A stretch of DNA of 64,000 nucleotides from an uncultured Alphaproteobacteria bacterium (GTDB lineage Bacteria; Pseudomonadota; Alphaproteobacteria; Rs-D84). The translations under genes and the position numbers were made by a program. The stretch is taken from contig CAMWON010000002.1 in assembly GCA_947175875.1 (NCBI GenBank), positions 1,216 to 65,215 of the forward strand. The letters run 5' to 3'. Of this stretch, positions 7,842-61,172 are shown piece after piece (position 1 is the stretch's first letter; every line of letters starts with the position of its first letter). Under the pieces are notes generated by a model that was not told the origin of the DNA, searched no databases, and saw nothing but the letters and a program-made list of their open reading frames with translations.

Positions 7842-9470
7842 ATGGCCACATCGGATAAAACGATTTTGAATCCTTTTTCGTCCACGCCGTCGGTACCGGC
7901 GGGGCTGGAAAATTCCACCAACAAGGACGTGGTCGATTATTTGTTTTCCAACGGAAACCGCTTGTTAACGGCGGCGGGCGGTGAATTTGAACTGTCCAAG
8001 GATACGCAGAGTTTAATTGCGTATTTCGCCGGGGGCGAGCTGATTATATCCCGCACGCACCGGTATGACGGACGCGTGCTGGCGTTTATTGATTTGCTGG
8101 CGCGGCGCGGTCGTACGGCACGGACGCCGTTTTATTCCGATTTGGGATTGCTGTCCACTATTTACAAAACGTACGAAGGGCGCGGCAGTGACGGCCGGGC
8201 CAGGACGGATTACGACAACCAGATGCAAAAGGACTTTGTCGATATCGTGGCAAAGGCCGCCGCCCAGAAAGTGTCCGACATTCATATAGAGGTTGCGGAC
8301 CAGACAACGATATATTTCCGTATCGACGGCAGTATGCAGCCGGTGCTGGAATACAATTCCGGATGGGGTGAATCGTTTGTTCGCGCGGCGTTTGCGTCGG
8401 CGGATATATCAAACGCAAACTATGCCCAGAACGAGTATCAGTCCGCCCAGAAAGACGGCCGCACGCCATTGCGCGGGACCAAGGATTTATATCTGCCGGC
8501 GGGCGTCCTGGCGATACGTATGCAGTTTAACCCCATCGCATTCGGCAGCCGGTATGTCGTAATGCGACTGCTGTACGACAATCCGTCCGAGGGGATTAAA
8601 TCCGGCCAGGAATTTGGCGAATATGAACAGAATCTGTTGATGCAGTTGCGCTCGTTCCCGACGGGATTGGTTGTTGTGGCGGGTCCGACCAGTTCCGGTA
8701 AATCCACAACGCTGGTTCGGAACATGTCGCTGATGCTGAAAGAGCGGCGCTATGAAATCAATTTGATTACGGTTGAAGACCCGGCCGAGCAAAAGATTTT
8801 CGGCGCGCACCAGATGCCTGTTGTCAACGCCATGAACGAGGATCAGCGCGAGGAAAAATTTACAGAGGCACTGGCCGCGGCGTTGCGCAGTGACCCGGAC
8901 ACATTGATGGTTGGTGAAATCCGCACCTTGTCTGCGGCGCAGTTAACGGTAAAGGGCGCGCTGTCGGGGCATAATGTTTGGACGACGCTGCATGCGAATT
9001 CGGCGATGGCGGCGCTGACCCGATTGCTGGATATGGGGGTAGAGGCGTTTAAGTTAAAAGAAGAAACAATGATGCGCGGGTTAATATCCATGCGCTTGTT
9101 TAAAAAGCTGTGCCCGGATTGTCGCGAACCGCTGGCAAACCATCCCGAACACCCGGCGTATCGCCGCGTGCTGGACGCGTTTGGGGAATTGGGCCTGCGC
9201 CAGGTATTTATTCGCGGCGCGGGTTGTGAAAAATGCGGGCGCAGCGGGACGCTGGGCCGTATCAAGGCGGGCGAGATTATTATTACAAACAGTGAATTTT
9301 TGAACCTGGCCCTGTCGGGGGATACGGACGGCGCGGTGCGGTACTGGCTGGAAAACATGGACGGACGCACACTGAAAGAGGCCGCGATTTCATTGATGTT
9401 GCAGGGGATTATCGGTGTTGATGAACTGGAGCGCTGGGTCGGGTTGCTTGACCGGCCGGGGGTATATTGA
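7842..9470 (+). CDS. GspE/PilB-family secretion ATPase (PilQ-like of type IVb systems)
   Basis: 542 aa. Walker A GPTSSGKSTT, Asp box TVEDPAE, Walker B/His box LRSDPDTLMVGEIR...GHNVWTTLHAN, tetracysteine CPDC...CEKC. Confidence 0.85.
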   Translation: MATSDKTILNPFSSTPSVPAGLENSTNKDVVDYLFSNGNRLLTAAGGEFELSKDTQSLIAYFAGGELIISRTHRYDGRVLAFIDLLARRGRTARTPFYSDLGLLSTIYKTYEGRGSDGRARTDYDNQMQKDFVDIVAKAAAQKVSDIHIEVADQTTIYFRIDGSMQPVLEYNSGWGESFVRAAFASADISNANYAQNEYQSAQKDGRTPLRGTKDLYLPAGVLAIRMQFNPIAFGSRYVVMRLLYDNPSEGIKSGQEFGEYEQNLLMQLRSFPTGLVVVAGPTSSGKSTTLVRNMSLMLKERRYEINLITVEDPAEQKIFGAHQMPVVNAMNEDQREEKFTEALAAALRSDPDTLMVGEIRTLSAAQLTVKGALSGHNVWTTLHANSAMAALTRLLDMGVEAFKLKEETMMRGLISMRLFKKLCPDCREPLANHPEHPAYRRVLDAFGELGLRQVFIRGAGCEKCGRSGTLGRIKAGEIIITNSEFLNLALSGDTDGAVRYWLENMDGRTLKEAAISLMLQGIIGVDELERWVGLLDRPGVY

Positions 9471-10540
9471 TGGAACGCCTTGAAAAGCTGTATGCAAAAT
9501 TTATGTTCCGGACCAATACGTCCAAGCGTATGGCGACGTGCCGGAAACTGGCGTCGCTGTTGCGCAATGATTTTACGTTGATGAATGCGCTGGGGCGGAT
9601 TGAAATGATTGAATCGCGCGGCGGTAAAAAACCGGGCGAGCCGTTCGCAATCGTAATGCGCGAATGGCAAAAGAATCTGGAACGCGGTATGAGTTTTTCA
9701 GAGGCGACGCGCGGATGGGTTCCAGCGGAAGAAACGCTGTTGTTGACATCCGGGAATATTTCAAATCTGGCGGTGGCGCTGGACAATGTTGGCCGCGTGG
9801 TAGAGGGGTCGGGCCGTATTTCGCGCGCGATGGCGTCGGCGGTTGCGTATCCGTTGTTTCTGTTCGCGTTGACGTTCGGGATAATAATAATGGTTGGGCT
9901 GTATCTGGTGCCGCCGTTGGCAGAGGCGGCGGGCGACGGCGTCATATGGCGCGGCGCGGCGGCGTCACTGATATGGTTAAGCGGGGCGGCGTATAAATAT
10001 TGGTTCATTGTCGTTATGGCCGCGGCCGCGATTATCGGGGCTGTATGGATAAGCCTGCCGAACTGGGCCGGGCGGGCGCGCGCGGTGGCGGATAAACTGC
10101 CGCCGTGGAACGTTTACAAGATACGCGTGTCGGTGTCGTGGTTAATGTCCTTGTCGGCGATGGTGGCGGCGGGAATGACCGTGCCGGACGCGATGCGAAT
10201 GCTGGCCGACAACGGGAACAGGTATCTGCGTACAAGACTTTCGGCGGCACTGCGATATATTGCAAACGGTGACAATTTGGGTGTTGCGTTGGCGAATACC
10301 GGGATGGATTTTCCGAACGATGAAATTATCGGTGATTTGGCGATATATGCCGACATGAACGGGTTTGACCAGAATCTGTCGCGTGTGGCGAACGATTATC
10401 TGGACCAGTCCGTGCGCCGTATGGAGGCGATATCAAGCACATTGAACAGCATCGGCATAATCCTGGTGTCGGCGATAATCGCGTGGGTTGTTCTGGGGAC
10501 GTTCCAGATGCAGGACCAGATTACGGCTGCATTGTCATAA
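9467..10540 (+). CDS. GspF/PilC-family inner-membrane platform protein (PilR-like)
   Basis: 357 aa, three predicted TM regions. Size, and position overlapping the stop of the ATPase gene, fit. Confidence 0.75.
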   Translation: MMERLEKLYAKFMFRTNTSKRMATCRKLASLLRNDFTLMNALGRIEMIESRGGKKPGEPFAIVMREWQKNLERGMSFSEATRGWVPAEETLLLTSGNISNLAVALDNVGRVVEGSGRISRAMASAVAYPLFLFALTFGIIIMVGLYLVPPLAEAAGDGVIWRGAAASLIWLSGAAYKYWFIVVMAAAAIIGAVWISLPNWAGRARAVADKLPPWNVYKIRVSVSWLMSLSAMVAAGMTVPDAMRMLADNGNRYLRTRLSAALRYIANGDNLGVALANTGMDFPNDEIIGDLAIYADMNGFDQNLSRVANDYLDQSVRRMEAISSTLNSIGIILVSAIIAWVVLGTFQMQDQITAALS

Positions 10541-10585
10541 TGGAAATTCAAATTTCTGGAAATAATAATCGAAATAGGATATAAT

Positions 10586-10770
10586 TCCCATCGTAATAGG
10601 GCTTCCTGTTATGCGAGCGTGGAAATCTCGCGACAAAAATCGCCTGCGCAGGCGTTAAATGCTCCACCCAACGCGGGTTGGAGACTGGTTGAATATAAAG
10701 AATAGACCAGGCATGAATTTTTGCATGATTTCCACCCTCCAACCGCCCTATATGTTTGGCGGTCTTTTTT
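10586..10770 (+). ncRNA. Structured RNA element, copy A of a 3-member family (unclassified)
   Basis: TATAAT at 10580-10585, with the same TATAATTCCCATCG as copy B. Long-range helix GAGCGTGGAAATC (10615-10627) / GATTTCCACCCTC (10727-10739). Hairpin CTCCACCC-aacgc-GGGTTGGAG (10662-10683). CAACC, then ACCGCC-loop-GGCGGT + CTTTTTT terminator ending at 10770. No ORF. Confidence 0.55.
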
Positions 10771-10880
10771 GTTCATGCCCCGGTTTTGCGTCTTCTTAAA
10801 CAATAAAATTGTGCCGGGGCTCTTATGTGTTGTTCAGTTCCGCGCGCGTTGCCTGACGTGCCATTGGGGACCCCTGTGTG

Positions 10881-10916
10881 ATAAAAATAAAAACCATCGG
10901 AAAAATTCAGATGGTT
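10881..10916 (-). terminator. Intrinsic terminator of the RusA-like gene; carries the CTCCAACC module
   Basis: Minus strand: stop-AAAAAA-CTCC-AACCATC-loop-GATGGTT-TTTATTTTTAT. It has the same CTCCAACC-plus-hairpin layout as the 3' ends of elements A, B and C. Confidence 0.6.
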
Positions 10917-10925
10917 GGAGTTTTT

Positions 10926-11495
10926 TTACACCATAAACGGCAGGTTTTCCAGTGTCCCTTCGACCACGCGGACGTTTACGTCAATCCACATAAATATGGT
11001 GTCGGGTGTGCGCGGTATGTCCGGACAGAACATATCGGTGGACAACAGGTGGCTGGTATTTACCGACAATTTGGTTATCAAATGGTCGTCGTCCAGCAGT
11101 GTGTAAATCGGACCGATATCGCGCGGCGTGTTTGCACCGATTTCGTGTTCATTTTGCGGCGCGCGCAGGCCGTCGAACAATGTCTTGATGCGGTTGTCGA
11201 TGTCGGACCGCGTCATGCCGACGATTTCCGGGTGCATCATCTGGATGTCCAGTTCCGCAATCAATTTCAAATTCGGCGTTATAATCGGGTTCCAGTCGAT
11301 GCCCCCGATATGGCGTGTGGTAATGGGGCTTTTGGTGGCGCCGGGCATCATGAACTTGGTCATGTTGTTCCATGGGCTGTGTTCAACCAGCTTTTTTAAC
11401 TGGGGGTGAAACTGCATGCGGATATCCGAAATATGCTGGGCGCGTTTCTTTGGATTAATTAAAATTTCTCCGAAATATAGCAGTTTGAACTTCAT
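10926..11495 (-). CDS. Hypothetical protein with RusA-like endonuclease motif
   Basis: 189 aa, RBS AAGGGGA 9 nt upstream. RSDIDNRIKTLFDGLRAP...LLDDDHLITKLSV resembles E. coli RusA [30 protein letters not shown] (from memory). The overlapping plus-strand ORFs were rejected. Confidence 0.6.
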   Translation of the reverse strand: MKFKLLYFGEILINPKKRAQHISDIRMQFHPQLKKLVEHSPWNNMTKFMMPGATKSPITTRHIGGIDWNPIITPNLKLIAELDIQMMHPEIVGMTRSDIDNRIKTLFDGLRAPQNEHEIGANTPRDIGPIYTLLDDDHLITKLSVNTSHLLSTDMFCPDIPRTPDTIFMWIDVNVRVVEGTLENLPFMV

Positions 11496-11572
11496 GGTAT
11501 TTTATCCCCTTTTTCCTTGATAAGTATACCAGAAATTGCTATGGTTTTCATAGAAAAAAGAAAGGAATTTAA

Positions 11573-13972
<2,400 letters not shown>

Positions 13973-20063: not shown

Positions 20064-20087
20064 AACCGACCTTTGTGTCGGTTTTTT
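20064..20087 (+). terminator. Intrinsic terminator after repeat copy 3
   Basis: AACCGAC-ctttgt-GTCGGTT followed by TTTT. Confidence 0.6.
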
Positions 20088-20090
20088 AAT

Positions 20091-20118
20091 AAAAAATCCG
20101 GCAACCGCCGGATTTTTT
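20091..20118. terminator. Bidirectional intrinsic terminator (serves secB)
   Basis: AAAAAA-TCCGGC-aacc-GCCGGA-TTTTTT. Confidence 0.65.
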
Positions 20119-20132
20119 CATTATTGCAAATA

Positions 20133-25845: not shown

Positions 25846-25998
25846 CGCATCGGGTGATACCCGGTGTGAGGTGTCATAACCTCTCAAAGTGAAAACTCCA
25901 ATATGGTTGGAGGCCTGCGATATATTTGAATAAGCGGGACTATTACTTTGGTAGTTATGAACCTCCAACCGCCCTTCATCACGGCGGTACGTTTTTTT
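25846..25998 (+). ncRNA. Structured RNA element, copy B (unclassified family), leader of a small HTH gene
   Basis: 5' hairpin CGGGT-gat-ACCCG. Long-range helix GAGGTGTCATAAC (25868-25880) / GTTATGAACCTC (25954-25965). Hairpin CTCCAA-tatgg-TTGGAG (25896-25912). CAACC, then CCGCC-loop-GGCGG + T7 terminator. The RBS GGAGG begins 13 nt after the T-run. Confidence 0.6.
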
Positions 25999-26329: not shown

Positions 26330-27910
26330 TTATTCCTTGCGCATGGGATATTTGCCGTCGATTAAGTTCTGGCGCACGACGTGATGTTTTATCTTTTGCG
26401 TGCTGGTCGTCGGCAGTTCGTCCGTTGTCATTGCAAAGTGTGTCACCCACTTATAGCTGGCGACCTTTTTATTTGCATTCGCGATTGCTGCGCCCAACTT
26501 TTCCATTGTCATGTCCGGTTCAACACTAAAGACGCCGTATGCAACGGTTTTATCCTTTATCTTGTGTTCGAATACCGCAACATTGTTTACGCCCGGGATT
26601 TTCATGAACAGGGCCTCCAGTTCGTCCGGATAAACGTTTTTGCCGGAATCCAGAACGATAACCTGTTTTTTACGGCCGGCAAAGTGCAGTTCGCCGTTTT
26701 TATCCATTGAAACCATGTCGCCGGTGTTAAAGAATCCGCGTTCGTCAAATACAACCTCGTTTGCATCAGGGTTGTTTAAATATCCGCCAAACACCTGGTG
26801 ACCGCGAATCCACAGAACGCCGACGCCGTCTTCGTTCATGTCGCGGATTTCGCATTCGTTGTTTGTTGTCGGTGCACCGAATGCAAACGGAAAACGTTTC
26901 TTTAACGGTTTGGAAATGCATACGGGGCCGACGGTTTCTGTCAGGCCATATCCCTGAATAAAGCGCATGCCTAAGCGTTCATAGAATGTTTCAACCTCTG
27001 GCTTGGTCGCGGCACCGCCCGCAATCAGCAGCGATACACGGCCGCCGAATATTTCACGGATTTGATTTTGAACGCGGTTTACGATAAAGCCCAAACCGAT
27101 TTTGCGCAAAAATTTGCCATATTTCAAAACCGTGTTTACCAGCCACCATTTGTTCTGAGATTTGGCCGTATCGATAATACGGTTGCGAATAACCTCAAAC
27201 AAACGGGGAACGGCCGGAATTGCATGCGGACGGAATTTTTTGAAATCCGCCATGATTTCCTTTGGGTTAACGGTCGGCTGAAGCAATACACCCGCGCCAT
27301 AGTGCAGCGTTGCCAGCAATTCAACCGCAAACCCGAATATGTGATACATCGGCAGGAAGCCGTACATAATATCGCCCGGCCCGATATAGTCGCGCATGTC
27401 GTCCAAAGACTTAGAACATTCGATTAAGTTAAAGTGCGTCAACGGCACAACCTTTGGCTTGCCGGTGGAGCCCGATGTAAACGACAGGGTCGCCACGTCC
27501 AACGGTTCCAGCGGTGCCGGTTTCAGGCGACCGTTTGCCTTGCCGTCTTCTTGGGTAATGTCAAAGAACTTGAACTTCTTGGTCTTGTAAAAGAACGATT
27601 TTTCTGCACATACCATATGACAGTCGGTGGTCGATGTCATGTTGTCATATTCAAACGGTGTTAAATTGGTATCAAGCAGCAGAACCGTTCCGCCCAGATA
27701 CCATATCGCGAACATGGTCGTCGGCATCTGGGGGATATTGTGCGACAGCACACCCACAATGTCACCGCGTTTCATTCCGGCCGCATGCAGTTCGGCCGCA
27801 CGGCGTTTAACCAGTTCAACAAACCCGGAAAATGTCACCCCTTCGCGGACCAGGAACAGGTTGTCCGGCCATGTGGCGGCGGCTTTTTCCAGCAATTGGT
27901 ACATGTTCAT
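26330..27910 (-). CDS. AMP-dependent acyl-CoA synthetase/ligase (FadD-like)
   Basis: 526 aa. Motifs: LSFTSGSTGKPKVV, GYGLTET, FNTGD...GR.K. Confidence 0.85.
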   Translation of the reverse strand: MNMYQLLEKAAATWPDNLFLVREGVTFSGFVELVKRRAAELHAAGMKRGDIVGVLSHNIPQMPTTMFAIWYLGGTVLLLDTNLTPFEYDNMTSTTDCHMVCAEKSFFYKTKKFKFFDITQEDGKANGRLKPAPLEPLDVATLSFTSGSTGKPKVVPLTHFNLIECSKSLDDMRDYIGPGDIMYGFLPMYHIFGFAVELLATLHYGAGVLLQPTVNPKEIMADFKKFRPHAIPAVPRLFEVIRNRIIDTAKSQNKWWLVNTVLKYGKFLRKIGLGFIVNRVQNQIREIFGGRVSLLIAGGAATKPEVETFYERLGMRFIQGYGLTETVGPVCISKPLKKRFPFAFGAPTTNNECEIRDMNEDGVGVLWIRGHQVFGGYLNNPDANEVVFDERGFFNTGDMVSMDKNGELHFAGRKKQVIVLDSGKNVYPDELEALFMKIPGVNNVAVFEHKIKDKTVAYGVFSVEPDMTMEKLGAAIANANKKVASYKWVTHFAMTTDELPTTSTQKIKHHVVRQNLIDGKYPMRKE

Positions 27911-31626: not shown

Positions 31627-32084
31627 GAAATTTATCATCTGTCTTTCGTTTGTTCGTTTTTGTTTCCGGTCATGTATGTCCAATACACTCCCGTTACAAA
31701 AACATTACAATCCGCAACATCTAAGACATTAATCGCTAAATGGGCAGCATAATTGAATCCCCTGTTTTGGGATTTTTTCTTTAATTTTTTATTGCTTTAA
31801 TTTTATCTGTATCTATAATCAAATCTGAACTGGTGGGGACATTGGTTCGGGGCTGTCACAAGCCTGTAATCTCCGGTGCAGAAAAAGAAGGACATCGTTA
31901 ATCCGATACTCTGGATTTTTGCATCGTTATATATCCCTGACTTTGAAAAAAAGGTCGGGGGGCTGTTCGTTATACAACAGGTTTTTACCAAAAGCGGCAG
32001 AATCATTGAGATACTGATTTGTGAACTCCCCGACTGCTCTTTATTTTGGGCGGTCGTTTTGTTTTTCAACAGAAAGGAGTGCAA

Positions 32085-55844: not shown

Positions 55845-56912
55845 TTATTTTGTAAATCTAATCTGTAAATTCAAATTGATAAATATGTCTCCGTTTTTCT
55901 CGTAAATACTACCAAATTTATGTCTTGTGGTGCTAGGAGTGTCTAACTTTGTATTTTCAAACAAATAATCCTTAAATGCGTCTTCGTTATATAAATGGTA
56001 GCATACTAGTACTCCATCTTCACGAACAACAATATAACCACCATAACTAGACAGACGGTCATTCCACTCACTTTGTGGGACCATACCAAGAGCAATTATT
56101 TTCAAGAAATTTCTAACTTTTGATATGATTTGTGGCTCGGTTAAGTCAAACTTGGTACTCTTAAACACCATATTGCATAATTCGTTCATAGTATTTGGAC
56201 AACCTAAATAGTATGCTAGTAGTATTTCTGCAACGATTTGTGGCATTTGTGTATCTATCGTTTTAAGATTGTCTGCAAAAATTTTGCTTGTCATTCCCAC
56301 AGATGTAATTTGCCCACCACACCGAATAATTTCTTTCAACCTATCCCTAACTTTACTTCGAGTAGATATGGCATTAATTTGGTGAACATCTGTATTTAAT
56401 CCAGATATTTTATAAATAAAATTTGTTCCCGTACTTGCGTTTAAGAGAGTTGAAGGACAACCTACACGAGATTTTATAGAAAATCCATAAGGTTCTGTTT
56501 CAGATATTATATCGTCTTTGATTGTTGCTATTATATCTGATTTTTGCCCTGAATTTGCTTTTATTTTGCTCAAAGAAAATACAGGCATTAAACGTTCTGC
56601 CTCATAAATCTCAAAAGCAGCTTCATCAGCATTTTGAATTCTATTAAATATTCGTTTTGTTTTCTCTGACAATCCATCTGTAGAAACAATACGAATAGGT
56701 GCTCTATTGCTTATTATGGATACCTTATCTGCTTCAGATAGGTCATAGGTTATATGTTCGCCAGGATTGTCATTTCTGAATATTTTTAAAAAATTATAAA
56801 AATGTCCTGTCGGCTCAAGATTGTTGTTAGCCGCTGCAATTTTGTGGTCTGCAAATAGACTATACAATACGTATAATTCTGACCATTCACCCTTATTGGC
56901 GGTTAAACTCAT
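55845..56912 (-). CDS. Type II restriction endonuclease, HpaII-like
   Basis: 355 aa. The N-terminus NKGEWSELYVLYSLFADHKI matches my recollection of the RE_HpaII family start (GEWSE.Y....LL). It overlaps the methylase stop by 4 nt. Confidence 0.55.
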   Translation of the reverse strand: MSLTANKGEWSELYVLYSLFADHKIAAANNNLEPTGHFYNFLKIFRNDNPGEHITYDLSEADKVSIISNRAPIRIVSTDGLSEKTKRIFNRIQNADEAAFEIYEAERLMPVFSLSKIKANSGQKSDIIATIKDDIISETEPYGFSIKSRVGCPSTLLNASTGTNFIYKISGLNTDVHQINAISTRSKVRDRLKEIIRCGGQITSVGMTSKIFADNLKTIDTQMPQIVAEILLAYYLGCPNTMNELCNMVFKSTKFDLTEPQIISKVRNFLKIIALGMVPQSEWNDRLSSYGGYIVVREDGVLVCYHLYNEDAFKDYLFENTKLDTPSTTRHKFGSIYEKNGDIFINLNLQIRFTK

Positions 56913-57772
56913 TGTGCGGCCTTTAATATTTTTATGATTTCTTTTGCAACCGCCTCTATAGCAGGTACCGCTACAGAATTGCCTAATTGCTTCATTGCTT
57001 GAACTTCAGACACAGGAAACTCAAAATCGGAAGGAAACCCTTGCATTAAAAGCCCCTCTTTTGGCGTAAGCCGTCTTATTACCCCATCAACTAAATAGGT
57101 GTCCCAATTACGTCTGTCGCTTATATTTGAATGACGCCCGCCAACACGTAAAGTAAAGCCAATATCTCTATCAACATGACCTCCGAAAATGTCACTCATT
57201 GTAAGTTTTAACTTTTTTGGTTTTGGAAATTCAAAATCTATATTTTTGTCTTTAAAACCAACCATAAATAAACGTGGTCTGTGTTGCGGAACGCCAAAAT
57301 CAGAAGCCCTAACTATTTTATAAAAGAAAGAATATCCCAATTCTTCCTCTATTACGCGTTTTATTGTTGCAAAGGTCTTTCCATTATCATGCTGTAACAA
57401 ACCGCGAACATTTTCTATAAAAAAGGCTTTTGGTTGTTTTTCTTTTATTATCCTAACAATGTCAAAAAACAGTGTTCCGCGTGTTTCATTAAACCCCTTT
57501 TTCAAGCCTACTTGTGAAAATGGCTGACAAGGAAATCCGCCTGTCAACACATCAAAGTCCGGGATACTAGCTGCATCAACTTTTGTTATATCGCCTGCGA
57601 ACATGTTCTTTTTAAACAATTTTGAATCTATCTTACTAAAGTTGCATTCGTATGTTTTTCTTGCAAATTCGTCCCATTCTGACGCAAATACACATTTTGC
57701 CCCGCAATTATGAAAGGCCAAATGAAACCCGCCGATACCAGCAAATAGGTCTATAAAAGTAATTTTTGACAC
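56909..57772 (-). CDS. DNA (cytosine-5)-methyltransferase
   Basis: 287 aa, GTG start after AGGAGG. Motif I FIDLFAGIGGF, motif IV GGFPCQPFS, motif VI ENVRGL, motif X QLGNSVAVP. Confidence 0.9.
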   Translation of the reverse strand: MSKITFIDLFAGIGGFHLAFHNCGAKCVFASEWDEFARKTYECNFSKIDSKLFKKNMFAGDITKVDAASIPDFDVLTGGFPCQPFSQVGLKKGFNETRGTLFFDIVRIIKEKQPKAFFIENVRGLLQHDNGKTFATIKRVIEEELGYSFFYKIVRASDFGVPQHRPRLFMVGFKDKNIDFEFPKPKKLKLTMSDIFGGHVDRDIGFTLRVGGRHSNISDRRNWDTYLVDGVIRRLTPKEGLLMQGFPSDFEFPVSEVQAMKQLGNSVAVPAIEAVAKEIIKILKAAQ

Positions 57773-57790
57773 ACAATCCTCCTATGCAGC

Positions 57791-57971
57791 AAAAAACCAC
57801 CTAAGAGTTCTTTGGTGGTTGGAGGTAAGACCTATCATTCTATGAAAATAGTGTGCTTATTTTGCCAAAAGCATTATTCACAACCCTCCAACCGCAGTTG
57901 GAGGTATTTTTCGTCCCCACGGACGCATAGAATGCAGAGGGTCTTAACCTCAATGCCAATCTCTTGGCATC
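57791..57971 (-). ncRNA. Structured RNA element, copy C (unclassified family), leader of the M-R operon
   Basis: Minus strand: TATAAT (57983-57978); hairpin ATGCCAA-gagat-TGGCAT; GAGGTTAAGACC (57951-57940) pairing with GGTCTTACCTC (57832-57822); perfect hairpin CCTCCAAC-tgcg-GTTGGAGG (57904-57885); CAACC; ACCACC-loop-GGTGGT + T6 terminator (57820-57791). AGGAGG follows 6 nt after the T-run. Confidence 0.6.
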
Positions 57972-58125
57972 AGTCTTATTATATCATAGTATTTTCATGC
58001 CCGGCTAGTACTTTATTTGTAATGGATGTTTTATTATGATGACCTAATTTTTTGCTTAAACGTCTTTATATCGTGTCCAATGCTAAGGAATGCATTAAAA
58101 TCTGTGGTCAGAAAATTGCTCATTG

Positions 58126-59754: not shown

Positions 59755-60777
59755 ATGAAAATAATGTCTGTAATGCTAATTGTTGCGATTACAATTGCGG
59801 CCATTGGGGTTTGTTTTGGGCGCTTGCACACATGGGATAAAACATTTGCTAAAAATCCGAACGTTAATGTAACGCGTGTGCATTTCAAAAATCGTTACGG
59901 TATAAAATTGGCGGGCGATTTATATGTGCCTAAAAAACGCGTGGCGGACAAGATGCCGGCGATTGCCGTGTCCGGTCCGTTCGGGGCGGTAAAAGAGCAG
60001 GTGTCGGGTCGATATGCCCAGGAAATGGCGTCGCGCGGATTTGTCGCGCTGGCGTTTGATGCGTCTTATACCGGACAGAGCGGCGGGACGCCCCGCAATG
60101 TTGCGTCGCCGGATATAAACACCGAAGACTTTTCGGCGGCGGTGGATTATTTAACCACGCGCGGCGATGTTGATGAGAACAAAATCGGTATTATCGGAAT
60201 TTGCGGGTTTGGTGGAATGGGACTGAATGCGGCGGCGATGGATACGCGAATAAAGGCGACGGTGACGTCAACCATGTATGATATGTCGCGTGTAAATGCA
60301 AACGGATATTATGACGCGATGAGTGCGGATGACCGCTATGCGGAGCGTGCACGCCTGAACGCGCAGCGCACGGCGGACGCCAAAAACGGCGAAGCGGCAT
60401 TTGCGGGCGGATTGCCGGAAACGCTGCCCGACGACGCGCCCCAGTTTATGAAGGATTATGTGGCTTATTATAAAACGCCGCGCGGTTATCACAAGCGCAG
60501 CGTTGCGTCGAACAAAGGATGGCGGGCGACGTCTGCGTTGTCGTTCATGAACATGCCGATATTGTCGTACAGTAATGAAATTCGCACACCTGTTTTAATG
60601 CTGCACGGGGAAAATGCGCACAGCCGCTATTTCAGTGAAGGTGCGTTTAAAAAATTGACCGGCGAGAACAAAGAGCTGCTCATCATCCCGGGCGCCAATC
60701 ACACGGATTTGTATGACAATATGGATGTGATTCCGTTTGATAAAATACAAAGCTTTTTTGATGAGAATTTAAAATAA
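59755..60777 (+). CDS. Alpha/beta hydrolase (dienelactone-hydrolase-like GxCxG elbow)
   Basis: 340 aa. N-terminal TM/signal, nucleophile elbow IGICGFGG, and C-terminal GANHTDLYD (His). Confidence 0.7.
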   Translation: MKIMSVMLIVAITIAAIGVCFGRLHTWDKTFAKNPNVNVTRVHFKNRYGIKLAGDLYVPKKRVADKMPAIAVSGPFGAVKEQVSGRYAQEMASRGFVALAFDASYTGQSGGTPRNVASPDINTEDFSAAVDYLTTRGDVDENKIGIIGICGFGGMGLNAAAMDTRIKATVTSTMYDMSRVNANGYYDAMSADDRYAERARLNAQRTADAKNGEAAFAGGLPETLPDDAPQFMKDYVAYYKTPRGYHKRSVASNKGWRATSALSFMNMPILSYSNEIRTPVLMLHGENAHSRYFSEGAFKKLTGENKELLIIPGANHTDLYDNMDVIPFDKIQSFFDENLK

Positions 60778-60803
60778 AAAAAGGCCGGCAAATGCCGGTC
60801 TTT

Positions 60804-61172
60804 TTATTCGTCGCATGCATATGTATATTTTTTCGGCATTTTATATAAATTGTTTGTTATCGCGTCGGCGGCCAGCGGCACAATCCCGAATATTATTCCG
60901 GGGAATATGTCAAGGAATATGGCCGCGCTGTTCGGGCGGCGTGCAATTATCGGCTGGGGACAGTTGTCGTTCGGTGTTTTTATCGTAATGCCGTTTCCCG
61001 CGCGCACCCGCATTTTTTCATTTGGTTTGATTTTAAATATTCCGTTGTCGGACGATGCGCTGATTACATCGGACGAATTGTTGAAAATCGTCGTTTCATG
61101 ATTGCTGCCGATGCCGATTGTTCCACAGGACGCAATTCCCAGAGTTAATATAATTGCAATCAGGCGTTTCAT
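60804..61172 (-). CDS. Small lipoprotein, function unknown
   Basis: 122 aa, lipobox LGIASC. Confidence 0.5.
   Translation of the reverse strand: MKRLIAIILTLGIASCGTIGIGSNHETTIFNNSSDVISASSDNGIFKIKPNEKMRVRAGNGITIKTPNDNCPQPIIARRPNSAAIFLDIFPGIIFGIVPLAADAITNNLYKMPKKYTYACDE

What the first reader, a model, noticed from the sequence alone, without database searches (positions are those of the whole stretch)
10580..10930. Copy A of the RNA family is orphan, and a fourth CTCCAACC-terminator module closes the convergent RusA-like gene
Copy A has TATAATTCCCATCG at 10580 and its terminator ends at 10770. It keeps the family architecture but is followed by no plus-strand gene. Downstream there is only a long-loop hairpin, GCCCCGG...CCGGGGC.

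About 110 nt further on, the convergent minus-strand gene (10926..11495) ends in stop-A6-CTCCAACCATC-loop-GATGGTT-T-rich. This is the same CTCCAACC-plus-hairpin 3' module seen in A (CTCCAACCGCCC...), B (CTCCAACCGCCC...) and C (CTCCAACCACC...).

Two readings are possible. Either A acts in trans as an sRNA whose CCUCC motifs are anti-Shine-Dalgarno-like, or the locus is a decayed cassette junction. Four occurrences of this 8-mer fused to terminators in 64 kb seems unlikely by chance, but I cannot compute the expectation here.
Basis: partly seen in the sequence, partly recalled or inferred. Interest (0 to 1): 0.65.

Follow-up and report, generated by a model that had tools for sequence, protein, structure and literature searches.

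The report
Orphan leader RNA and deletion scar
Copy A is an intact, gene-less member of an uncatalogued structured leader-RNA family of tiny-genome gut Alphaproteobacteria, and the "fourth CTCCAACC terminator" is the tail of another copy, left behind by a recent deletion and now sitting at the end of the neighbouring gene.

Summary
CTCCAACC occurs 9 times in the window against about 1 expected, and seven of those lie in three full RNA copies (A, B, C) plus one terminator (D) behind the 189-aa gene.

The 8-mer is not a free-standing module. It is part of a roughly 150-190-nt promoter-to-terminator RNA whose helices are supported by covariation in 85 relatives. CCUC closes a long-range helix, AACC opens the terminator, and the whole word is complementary to GGUUGGAG upstream.

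Copy A (10592-10769) is full length and has a promoter. Against its counterpart in a syntenic relative it is 88% identical, where third codon positions of the flanking genes are 61% identical. Neither genome has a credible gene directly behind it.

D is a deletion scar. In that relative and in closely related strains the same terminator ends a complete copy that leads a 50-codon ORF. The window lost about 186 bp (the gene's own terminator, the promoter and the RNA's 5' part) and a further 0.5-0.6 kb, keeping only the first 10 codons of that ORF.

So the "decayed cassette junction" reading is supported. A trans-acting role for A is untested, and its CCUCC motifs are paired. "RusA-like" is not supported.

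The parts
10557..10585 (+). Promoter of copy A: TGGAAA, 17 nt spacer, TATAAT.
   Evidence: The consensus scan gives 10 of 12 matches. TATAAT is kept in the L123 counterpart, while the surrounding stop-to-start stretch is only 65% identical.
10592..10769 (+). Copy A, a full-length family RNA. Its parts are P1 10592-10613; long-range P2 10615-10627 with 10727-10739; extra hairpin 10641-10654; P3 10662-10683 (an irregular 5' arm, CUCCA-CC-CAAC); P4 10685-10710; the CUCCAACC word 10737-10744; and the terminator 10742-10770.
   Evidence: Model R1 scores 92.8 bits, E 5e-23, covering model positions 1-172. The MFE is -63.7 kcal/mol, z -3.3. It is 88.1% identical to L123 10669-10844, against 61% at third codon positions of the flanking genes. 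Of its 50 pairs, 40 are unchanged, 6 are kept by a one-sided change, 1 by a double change (10686-10709, U-A to C-G), and 3 are broken.
10777..10820 (.). Long-loop hairpin GCCCCGG(U)...(G)CCGGGGC downstream of A. Function unknown.
   Evidence: It folds at -16.7 kcal/mol on + and -15.4 on -. L123 keeps the stems, but the loop differs in sequence and is 7 nt shorter. No U run follows on either strand.
10823..10876 (-). Remnant of the cargo gene of the truncated copy: an SD (AGGGG) and the ORF start 10864, reading MARQATRAEL, then NNT and a stop at 10825-10823.
   Evidence: The first 10 codons match the 50-codon ORF MARQATRAELAAAVIDLY... that follows the full copy in L123. Window 10835-10923 matches L123 11462-11548 at 87.6% identity.
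10879..10920 (-). Element D, the 3' end of a family copy: CUCCAACC at 10920-10913, the terminator stem at 10916-10892 and the U-rich tail. It now lies 5 nt behind the stop codon of the 189-aa gene.
   Evidence: R1 matches only CCAACC plus the terminator (19.7 bits in all). The hairpin is -9.0 kcal/mol. The loop UGAAUUUUUC is typical of family terminators. In L123 the identical module ends a complete copy scoring 109.9 bits. It is the only solo module among 111.
10922..10923 (.). Junction of deletion 1. About 186 bp present in L123 (11549-11734) are missing here: the gene's own terminator, the promoter and roughly 115 nt of the RNA's 5' part.
   Evidence: The blastn blocks and the sequence show it. 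Independent contigs of runs X1 and X2 span the junction, while run X3 has 767 letters where the window has 102.
10821..10835 (.). Approximate junction of deletion 2. About 0.5-0.6 kb present in L123 (roughly 10935-11461) are missing: a second, divergent leader, a 48-codon ORF on +, and most of the 50-codon ORF on -.
   Evidence: Contigs of X20, X21, X22 and X2 leave the window's sequence at 10807-10820, and in X22 the sequence beyond resembles L123. The X1 contig spans 10746-11178 in the window's form.
10926..11495 (-). The 189-aa gene of unknown function, convergent with A. Relatives keep it next to gyrB.
   Evidence: tblastn finds it at 96% identity in L101 and 81% in L092. It is 82% identical in nucleotides to L123. 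It has no Pfam, NCBIfam or PDB match above threshold.
25846..25997 (+). Copy B, the leader of a 93-aa XRE-type HTH gene. Listed for comparison.
   Evidence: R1 scores 111.2 bits. The gene matches HTH_31 at E 3e-4.
57791..57972 (-). Copy C on the minus strand, the leader of an HpaII-type methylase and endonuclease pair. Listed for comparison.
   Evidence: R1 scores 107.9 bits. The genes match DNA_methylase at E 1e-89 and RE_HpaII at E 3e-97.

Best explanation
The stretch between the pilus-like operon (GspE/GspF-type genes) and the 189-aa gene/gyrB is a strain-variable junction. It holds cassettes of the form [quoted passage not shown].

The RNA belongs to a large family that is not in Rfam, found in Candidatus Enterousia-like gut Alphaproteobacteria. 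The word CUCCAACC is an integral part of that RNA:
- Its CCUC closes a 12-13-bp long-range helix (P2).
- Its AACC is the first part of the terminator stem.
- The whole word can instead pair with GGUUGGAG(G), the 3' arm of hairpin P3.
The RNA therefore has a terminating fold and a competing fold that resembles sRNA-Xcc1.

Shown:
- Copy A is a complete, promoter-bearing copy that has been kept under selection. No gene follows it directly, here or in the syntenic relative.
- Element D is the last ~40 nt of a second, convergent copy. A ~186-bp deletion removed the 189-aa gene's own terminator, the copy's promoter and its first ~115 nt.
- A second deletion of ~0.5-0.6 kb removed a divergent leader and two small ORFs, leaving 10 codons of D's former cargo.

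Inferred:
- The RNA's terminator now serves the 189-aa gene.
- A is transcribed and, by default, terminated into a discrete RNA of about 180 nt. Whether that RNA does anything in trans is unknown.
For: The family and its structure:
- A genome scan with the motif pattern gave 120 loci. About 100 are in gut alphaproteobacterial MAGs, and the design is uniform: promoter, RNA, terminator, SD, start codon.
- On 85 sequences, 46 pairs are 90.8% paired. There are 545 double-change cells against 174 in shuffles and about 100 in slid controls. P2 pairs show 4-5 pair types each.
- Model R1 finds A, B and C at 93-111 bits and 112 copies in 753 kb.
- 92 of those 112 have an SD and ORF start, mostly 13-36 nt after the terminator.

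The two folds:
- The terminating fold is the MFE by 8-24 kcal/mol in five copies.
- Three copies found outside the search pattern change the three words in concert. L023:6046 has CCUUCUGC/UGCAGGAGG/CCUCCUGC. L004:2997 and L101:2561 change the ninth pair to U-A or A-U.
- Rfam aligns the sRNA-Xcc1 outer helix to GGUUGGAGG...CCUCCAACC in copy B, at a sub-threshold score.

D as a scar:
- Only 1 of 111 modules is solo.
- L123 is syntenic at ~83% identity. It has a full copy (109.9 bits) with the identical terminator, followed by the MARQATRAEL... ORF.
- The window keeps those 10 codons.
- Related strains hold the long form (X3: 767 letters in place of 102; X22: a full copy). X2 holds the D fusion, and X1 the window's form.
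- Neither L092 nor L101 has CTCCAACC behind the gene.

A under selection: 88.1% identity against 61% at third codon positions and 65% in the promoter-flanking spacer. A compensatory pair, 10686/10709, also appears in the ~95% strains.
Against: - The direction of the two indels is inferred from relatives: L123 at 83% identity and Logan contigs of strains at 95-98%. It does not come from a dated tree or raw reads.
- No RNA data exist for this organism, so transcription, termination at A and use of D as a terminator are all inferred.
- A scores in the lower tail of the family (92.8 bits, range 64-158) and its P3 5' arm is irregular, so some loss of function cannot be excluded.
- The invariance of the three words in most copies partly reflects the search pattern.
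- The factor that would flip the switch is unknown.
Confidence: 0.85

Rival explanations
1. Copy A is a dedicated trans-acting small RNA. Its CCUCC motifs would act as anti-Shine-Dalgarno sequences on other mRNAs, or it would act as a decoy for the factor that controls the family.
For: - It has its own promoter and terminator and no gene behind it.
- It is more conserved than neutral sites.
- The default fold terminates, so a discrete RNA is expected.
- About 1 in 8-10 family copies lacks a gene, and tandem copies occur in L101.
- The core weakly resembles sRNA-Xcc1, a Northern-verified sRNA (PMC2996969).
Against: - The CCUC(C) letters are paired in the structure supported by covariation.
- The same motifs are present in about 100 copies that are plainly cis leaders.
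- No complement of the conserved P4 loop occurs in the window beyond chance.
- There are no transcript data.
- In L123, A is followed by a second leader and an ORF, so it may be the first of a tandem pair rather than a free sRNA.
Confidence: 0.2
2. Copy A is a decaying relic, a leader that lost its gene and is no longer functional.
For: - There is no downstream gene.
- Its score is below the family median, its P3 5' arm is irregular, and the ninth pair of the alternative helix is lost.
- The adjacent DNA has suffered two deletions.
Against: - It is 88% identical to a counterpart 17-18% diverged elsewhere, with pairs kept in 47 of 50 cases and one compensatory change.
- The -10 box is conserved.
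- The counterpart and the related subfamily score similarly (90-103 bits), so the low score is a trait of the subfamily rather than fresh decay.
Confidence: 0.12
3. CTCCAACC plus a hairpin is an independent, reusable or mobile 3' module (or an uptake or recognition word) that is recruited to the ends of genes.
For: Four occurrences are fused to terminators in 64 kb, and the word is enriched 9 against 1.
Against: - 110 of 111 in-register modules lie in full RNA copies.
- The only solo one has a documented deletion origin.
- Two relatives have other terminators behind the same gene.
Confidence: 0.03
4. The result is chance or an assembly artefact.
For: The window comes from a metagenome-type genome with repeated RNA copies, which could mislead an assembler.
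Against: - 0 of 100 shuffles reach the observed count.
- Independent contigs from two studies (X1, X2) span the D junction.
- The shared repeat at the junction is only about 10-12 nt.
Confidence: 0.02

Closest known systems
sRNA-Xcc1 (Rfam RF02221), an 88-nt Northern-verified sRNA of Xanthomonas campestris (PMC2996969)
   Same: In copy B, the Rfam model's outer G-rich/C-rich helix enclosing two hairpins aligns to GGUUGGAGG, P4, P5, CCUCCAACC. That is the family's alternative (non-terminating) fold.
   Different: - The score is 25.4 bits against a gathering score of 53, and copy A gives no hit at all at E<=10.
- The Enterousia RNAs are about twice as long. They add P1, a competing long-range helix, a competing hairpin arm and a fused terminator, and they sit directly in front of genes.
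Classical terminator/antiterminator leaders: trp/his-type attenuators, PyrR-type attenuators and riboswitch expression platforms (from general knowledge)
   Same: Three copies of one word (1:2 or 2:3 pairing) overlap a terminator 13-36 nt before the SD and start codon. The terminating fold is the default.
   Different: There is no leader peptide, and no known ligand or protein. The element is multicopy and stands before unrelated genes: HTH regulators, secreted proteins and restriction-modification genes. The sensor is unknown.
Terminated riboswitch or leader transcripts that act in trans, such as the Listeria SreA/SreB type (from general knowledge; not tested here)
   Same: A leader that ends at its own terminator yields a stable small RNA. 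An orphan copy such as A would make only that product.
   Different: No trans target or transcript has been shown for A.
Ordinary intrinsic terminators left at deletion junctions
   Same: D is a hairpin of -9 kcal/mol followed by a U run, directly behind a stop codon.
   Different: Its sequence betrays its origin from a leader RNA: CUCCAACC, the family's loop, and the SD and 10 codons of the former cargo behind it.

Membership tests
   Copy A scores 92.8 bits, E 5e-23, over model positions 1-172. A was in the seed alignment, but its L123 counterpart, which was not, scores 90.0 bits.
   TGGAAA-17-TATAAT at 10557-10585. The same TATAAT placement is seen in the relatives. Promoter activity was not tested.
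   Copy A has none, whereas 92 of 112 relatives do. A is therefore a structural member without the usual cargo.
   Only CCAACC plus the terminator aligns (19.7 bits). The sequence upstream is the conserved C-terminus of the 189-aa gene. D is a fragment, not a copy.
sRNA-Xcc1 (RF02221) | A score at or above the Rfam gathering threshold of 53 bits. | tested here: not met
   Copy A gives no match at E<=10. Copy B scores 25.4 bits, E 0.015.
RusA Holliday-junction resolvase (PF05866), for the 189-aa protein | A Pfam score at or above 22.8 bits over the domain. | tested here: not met
   The score is 12.8 bits, E 0.18, over only 21 residues. NCBIfam gives nothing, and the best PDB E-value is 0.09, to an unrelated protein. 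The fold was not tested.
Intrinsic (factor-independent) terminator, for D and for A's 3' end | A stable hairpin followed directly by a U run on the transcribed strand. | tested here: met
   The hairpins are -9.0 and -9.1 kcal/mol, followed by U5AU5 and CU6. The simple scanner misses both because their loops exceed 8 nt. Termination itself cannot be tested with these tools.
SgrS (RF00534), RAGATH-21 and mmgR/suhB | The Rfam gathering score. | tested here: not met
   The scores are 19.5/37, 20.7/70.3 and 12.8/41 bits. The matches are terminator look-alikes.

The most novel reading that the evidence does not exclude
Copy A, like the roughly 10% of family copies that have no gene, is kept by selection because its terminated ~180-nt product works in trans. 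It could be a decoy that titrates the unknown factor flipping all the family's switches, or a c4/Xcc1-like antisense RNA. The family would then be a cis attenuator and a trans regulator in one network, governing surface, regulator and defence genes in ~1-Mb gut Alphaproteobacteria.
Probability: 0.2. Interest if true: 0.7.

Novelty: new variant of a known kind. Interest (0 to 1): 0.42.

Why it matters
For this locus the answer is mostly ordinary. The fourth "module" is a deletion scar, and the 8-mer is enriched because it belongs to a multicopy RNA.

Two things are worth keeping.
- The locus gives a clean natural series (long form, single deletion, double deletion) among strains 95-98% identical. 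It shows that these promoter-leader-gene cassettes turn over quickly, and that a leader's own terminator can be taken over by a neighbouring gene.
- Copy A is gene-less yet clearly constrained. That makes it the simplest object for asking whether this uncatalogued leader family also acts in trans, and for in-vitro termination assays without any cargo effects.

The family itself is a large, structurally well-supported regulatory RNA with an unknown trigger. It stands in front of regulators, secreted proteins and restriction-modification genes in host-associated bacteria with ~1-Mb genomes.

Tried and rejected
No genome-wide 8-mer count or copy census of the window's own genome was possible. About 960 kb of related loci were used instead.
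- Rfam: at gathering scores it finds only tRNAs. The lenient scan of A gives only terminator look-alikes (SgrS, RAGATH-21, mmgR), which I rejected.
- First alignment: it used C on the plus strand and was misleading. C is on the minus strand.
- RNAalifold: alone it recovered only P1 and the invariant 9-bp helix. The other helices had to be defined by hand and tested.
- Viral contigs: the two hits look like coding-sequence chance matches.
- RNA evidence: runs labelled "RNA?" (X20, X21) hold contigs of kilobases and behave like DNA. Only contigs were available, so nothing can be said about transcripts.
- Plus-strand ORF after A (53 codons from 10775; 111 codons in L123): rejected. It lacks an SD in the window, its frame is not preserved across a 7-nt loop-length difference, it has no Pfam match, and in L123 it overlaps a strongly structured second leader.
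- A-type look-alikes next to accC, each with a 61-76-aa HTH gene (L003, L021, L062, L074, L107, L114): I first took these for orthologues. There is no remnant of that HTH gene in the window, and the true syntenic counterpart is L123.
- Trans target of the conserved P4 loop: none beyond chance.
- RusA for the 189-aa protein: below threshold.

Full report
**What is in the sequence**

- A promoter-like site, TGGAAA-17-TATAAT, ends at 10585.
- A's terminator is ACCGCC/GGCGGU followed by a T run to 10770. D's is AACCAUC/GAUGGUU followed by U5AU5 on the minus strand. Each hairpin is about -9 kcal/mol.
- D begins 5 nt after the TAA of the 189-aa ORF 10926..11495. That is five A, not six.
- CTCCAACC occurs 9 times, against 1.07 expected, and no shuffle reaches that count. 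Two occurrences lie inside ORFs. The other seven are A, B and C (two each, because GGTTGGAG is the complement) and D.

**The 8-mer belongs to a structured RNA**

A and B fold alike. Once C is read on the minus strand, all three align from promoter to terminator.

About 100 are from uncultured gut Alphaproteobacteria, many labelled Candidatus Enterousia. Nearly all show the same order: TATAAT, P1 hairpin, a G-rich segment, an optional hairpin, CUCCAACC-loop-GGUUGGAGG, two further hairpins, CCUCCAACC fused to a terminator, then an SD and start codon.

On an 85-sequence alignment I defined 46 pairs and tested them.
- 90.8% of cells are paired.
- 545 cells have changes on both sides, against 174 in shuffles and about 100 when partners are slid.
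- The 12-13-bp long-range helix P2 covaries strongly, with 4-5 pair types at several positions.

Its 3' strand ends in the CCUC of CCUCCAACC, and the terminator stem starts at the following AACC. The word therefore straddles the junction between P2 and the terminator.

A covariance model (R1) finds A, B and C in the window at 92.8, 111.2 and 107.9 bits. It finds 112 copies in 753 kb of related loci. Of those, 92 have an SD and an ORF start, mostly 13-36 nt after the terminator.

The downstream genes are mainly small XRE-type HTH proteins and signal-peptide proteins, plus methylases and a helicase. In the window, B leads an HTH gene and C leads an HpaII-type methylase and endonuclease pair.

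**How the family probably works**

GGUUGGAG(G) can pair either with the upstream CUCCAACC (P3) or with the downstream CCUCCAACC. The second pairing removes CCUC from P2 and AACC from the terminator.

In five copies the terminating fold is the MFE by 8-24 kcal/mol. Termination is therefore the default, and read-through would need a trigger.

Most copies are invariant in the three words, partly because my pattern required them. Copies found only by the model do change them in concert:
- L023:6046 has CCUUCUGC/UGCAGGAGG/CCUCCUGC.
- L004:2997 and L101:2561 switch the ninth pair to U-A or A-U, with matching first words.

Rfam at gathering scores sees nothing here. At lenient settings, copy B gives a sub-threshold match to sRNA-Xcc1 (25.4 against 53 bits), whose outer helix aligns to exactly this alternative pairing. 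A gives none. The trigger is unknown, so this part is inference.

**Copy A**

A is a full-length copy. Its score is in the lower tail of the family. However, the related subfamily in other genomes (96-103 bits) and A's own syntenic counterpart in L123 (90.0 bits) score alike.

Between the window and L123, identities are as follows:

| Stretch | Identity |
|---|---|
| A | 88.1% (156 of 177) |
| Flanking GspF-type gene and 189-aa gene, overall | 82% |
| Same genes, third codon positions | 61% |
| Spacer before the RNA | 65% |

Of 50 pairs in A's fold, 47 are kept. One is kept by a double change (10686/10709, U-A to C-G), and the same pair of changes appears in contigs of strains about 95% identical.

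No gene follows A.
- The 53-codon frame from 10775 has no SD and is not preserved.
- In L123, A is followed by the same GCCCCGG/CCGGGGC hairpin (stems kept, loop changed). Then comes a second, divergent but similarly built leader with its own promoter, and then a 48-codon ORF.

A is thus a conserved gene-less copy, possibly the first of a tandem pair. Such copies are a minority, roughly 1 in 8-10, and include a triple tandem in L101.

A search for complements of the conserved P4 loop found nothing beyond chance.

**Element D**

R1 matches only CCAACC and the hairpin. In about 960 kb, 110 of 111 CTCCAACC-terminator modules in the family register have the RNA body upstream. D is the only solo one.

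Two relatives carry other terminators behind the same gene:
- L092: no CTCCAACC, and a different cassette with a Fic-like gene.
- L101: CCCGG/CCGGG.

A metagenome scan with D's own terminator found L123, which is syntenic over window 9003-13921 at about 83% identity. There the 189-aa gene ends with its own terminator. It is followed by a promoter and a complete family copy (109.9 bits) whose last 40 nt are D, and then by an SD and a 50-codon ORF, MARQATRAELAAAV....

The window keeps D, the SD and MARQATRAEL, then reads NNT-stop. Relative to L123 it lacks 186 bp at 10922/10923 and about 0.5-0.6 kb at about 10821-10835.

Contigs of public gut metagenomes show the same states in close strains:
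- X3 has 767 letters where the window has 102.
- X22 has D as part of a full copy.
- X2 has the D-gene fusion but diverges after 10820.
- X1 matches the window across 10746-11178.

The junctions are therefore real and the deletions are recent. The decayed-junction reading is correct.

**Limits**

- Only assembled contigs were available, not reads, and none are clearly RNA.
- Expression, termination and any trans role are therefore inferred.
- "RusA-like" for the 189-aa protein is not supported.
- Earlier notes of this scan describe the same RNA family in other genomes. I treated them as leads and re-derived the structure, the Xcc1 resemblance and the three-way changes here.

Noticed in passing
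window 55845-57972 (-): Copy C of the leader RNA stands directly in front of an HpaII-type C5-methylase and restriction endonuclease pair. The leader family therefore also controls a restriction-modification system.
   Followed up: partly
L101 2338-3022 (-): Three family copies lie in tandem (115, 93.5 and 88 bits; gaps of 42 and 104 nt) before a 195-aa outer-membrane-like gene. In this close relative the 189-aa gene/gyrB block is joined to the acyl-CoA-synthetase-like gene that lies near copy B in the window (26330-27910). That implies a rearrangement between the two regions.
   Followed up: partly
L123 10955-11180 (+): A divergent second type of leader has the same architecture (P1, long-range helix, terminator; MFE z -4.4). 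CACCCCGGCC and GCCGGGGUG take the place of CCUCCAACC and GGUUGGAGG. The GCCCCGG/CCGGGGC hairpin that survives at window 10777-10820 carries the same word.
   Followed up: partly
L123 11197-11343 (+) and 11491-11340 (-): Two convergent small ORFs have similar N-termini (MVKKATRAKL... and MARQATRAEL...). Each lies behind its own leader. Neither has a Pfam or NCBIfam match.
   Followed up: partly
window 60770-60812 and 20084-20124: These short stretches are 85-94% identical to the terminator region that follows the small HTH gene next to accC in six other genomes (L003, L074, L107, L114 and others). This looks like a second conserved terminator-like repeat.
   Followed up: no
window 31999-32060 (+): A weak R1 match (18.7 bits) consists of a hairpin plus a CCCCGACUGC...GGCGGU terminator, just before the ORF at 32046. 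It may be an ordinary terminator or a very degenerate fragment.
   Followed up: no
L092 5189-6229 and 6660-6770: In this relative the same intergenic slot holds a Fic-domain-like gene (motif HPFGEGNTRA), a different family copy with a 47-codon ORF, and runs of GTGGTTAGTG-type repeats in inverted orientation.
   Followed up: no
L012, L054, L067, L098 (downstream of gene-less copies): Several gene-less copies are followed by a recurring GCCGTCAT(A/T)CCG...GGAATC-type sequence, possibly a REP-like repeat.
   Followed up: no
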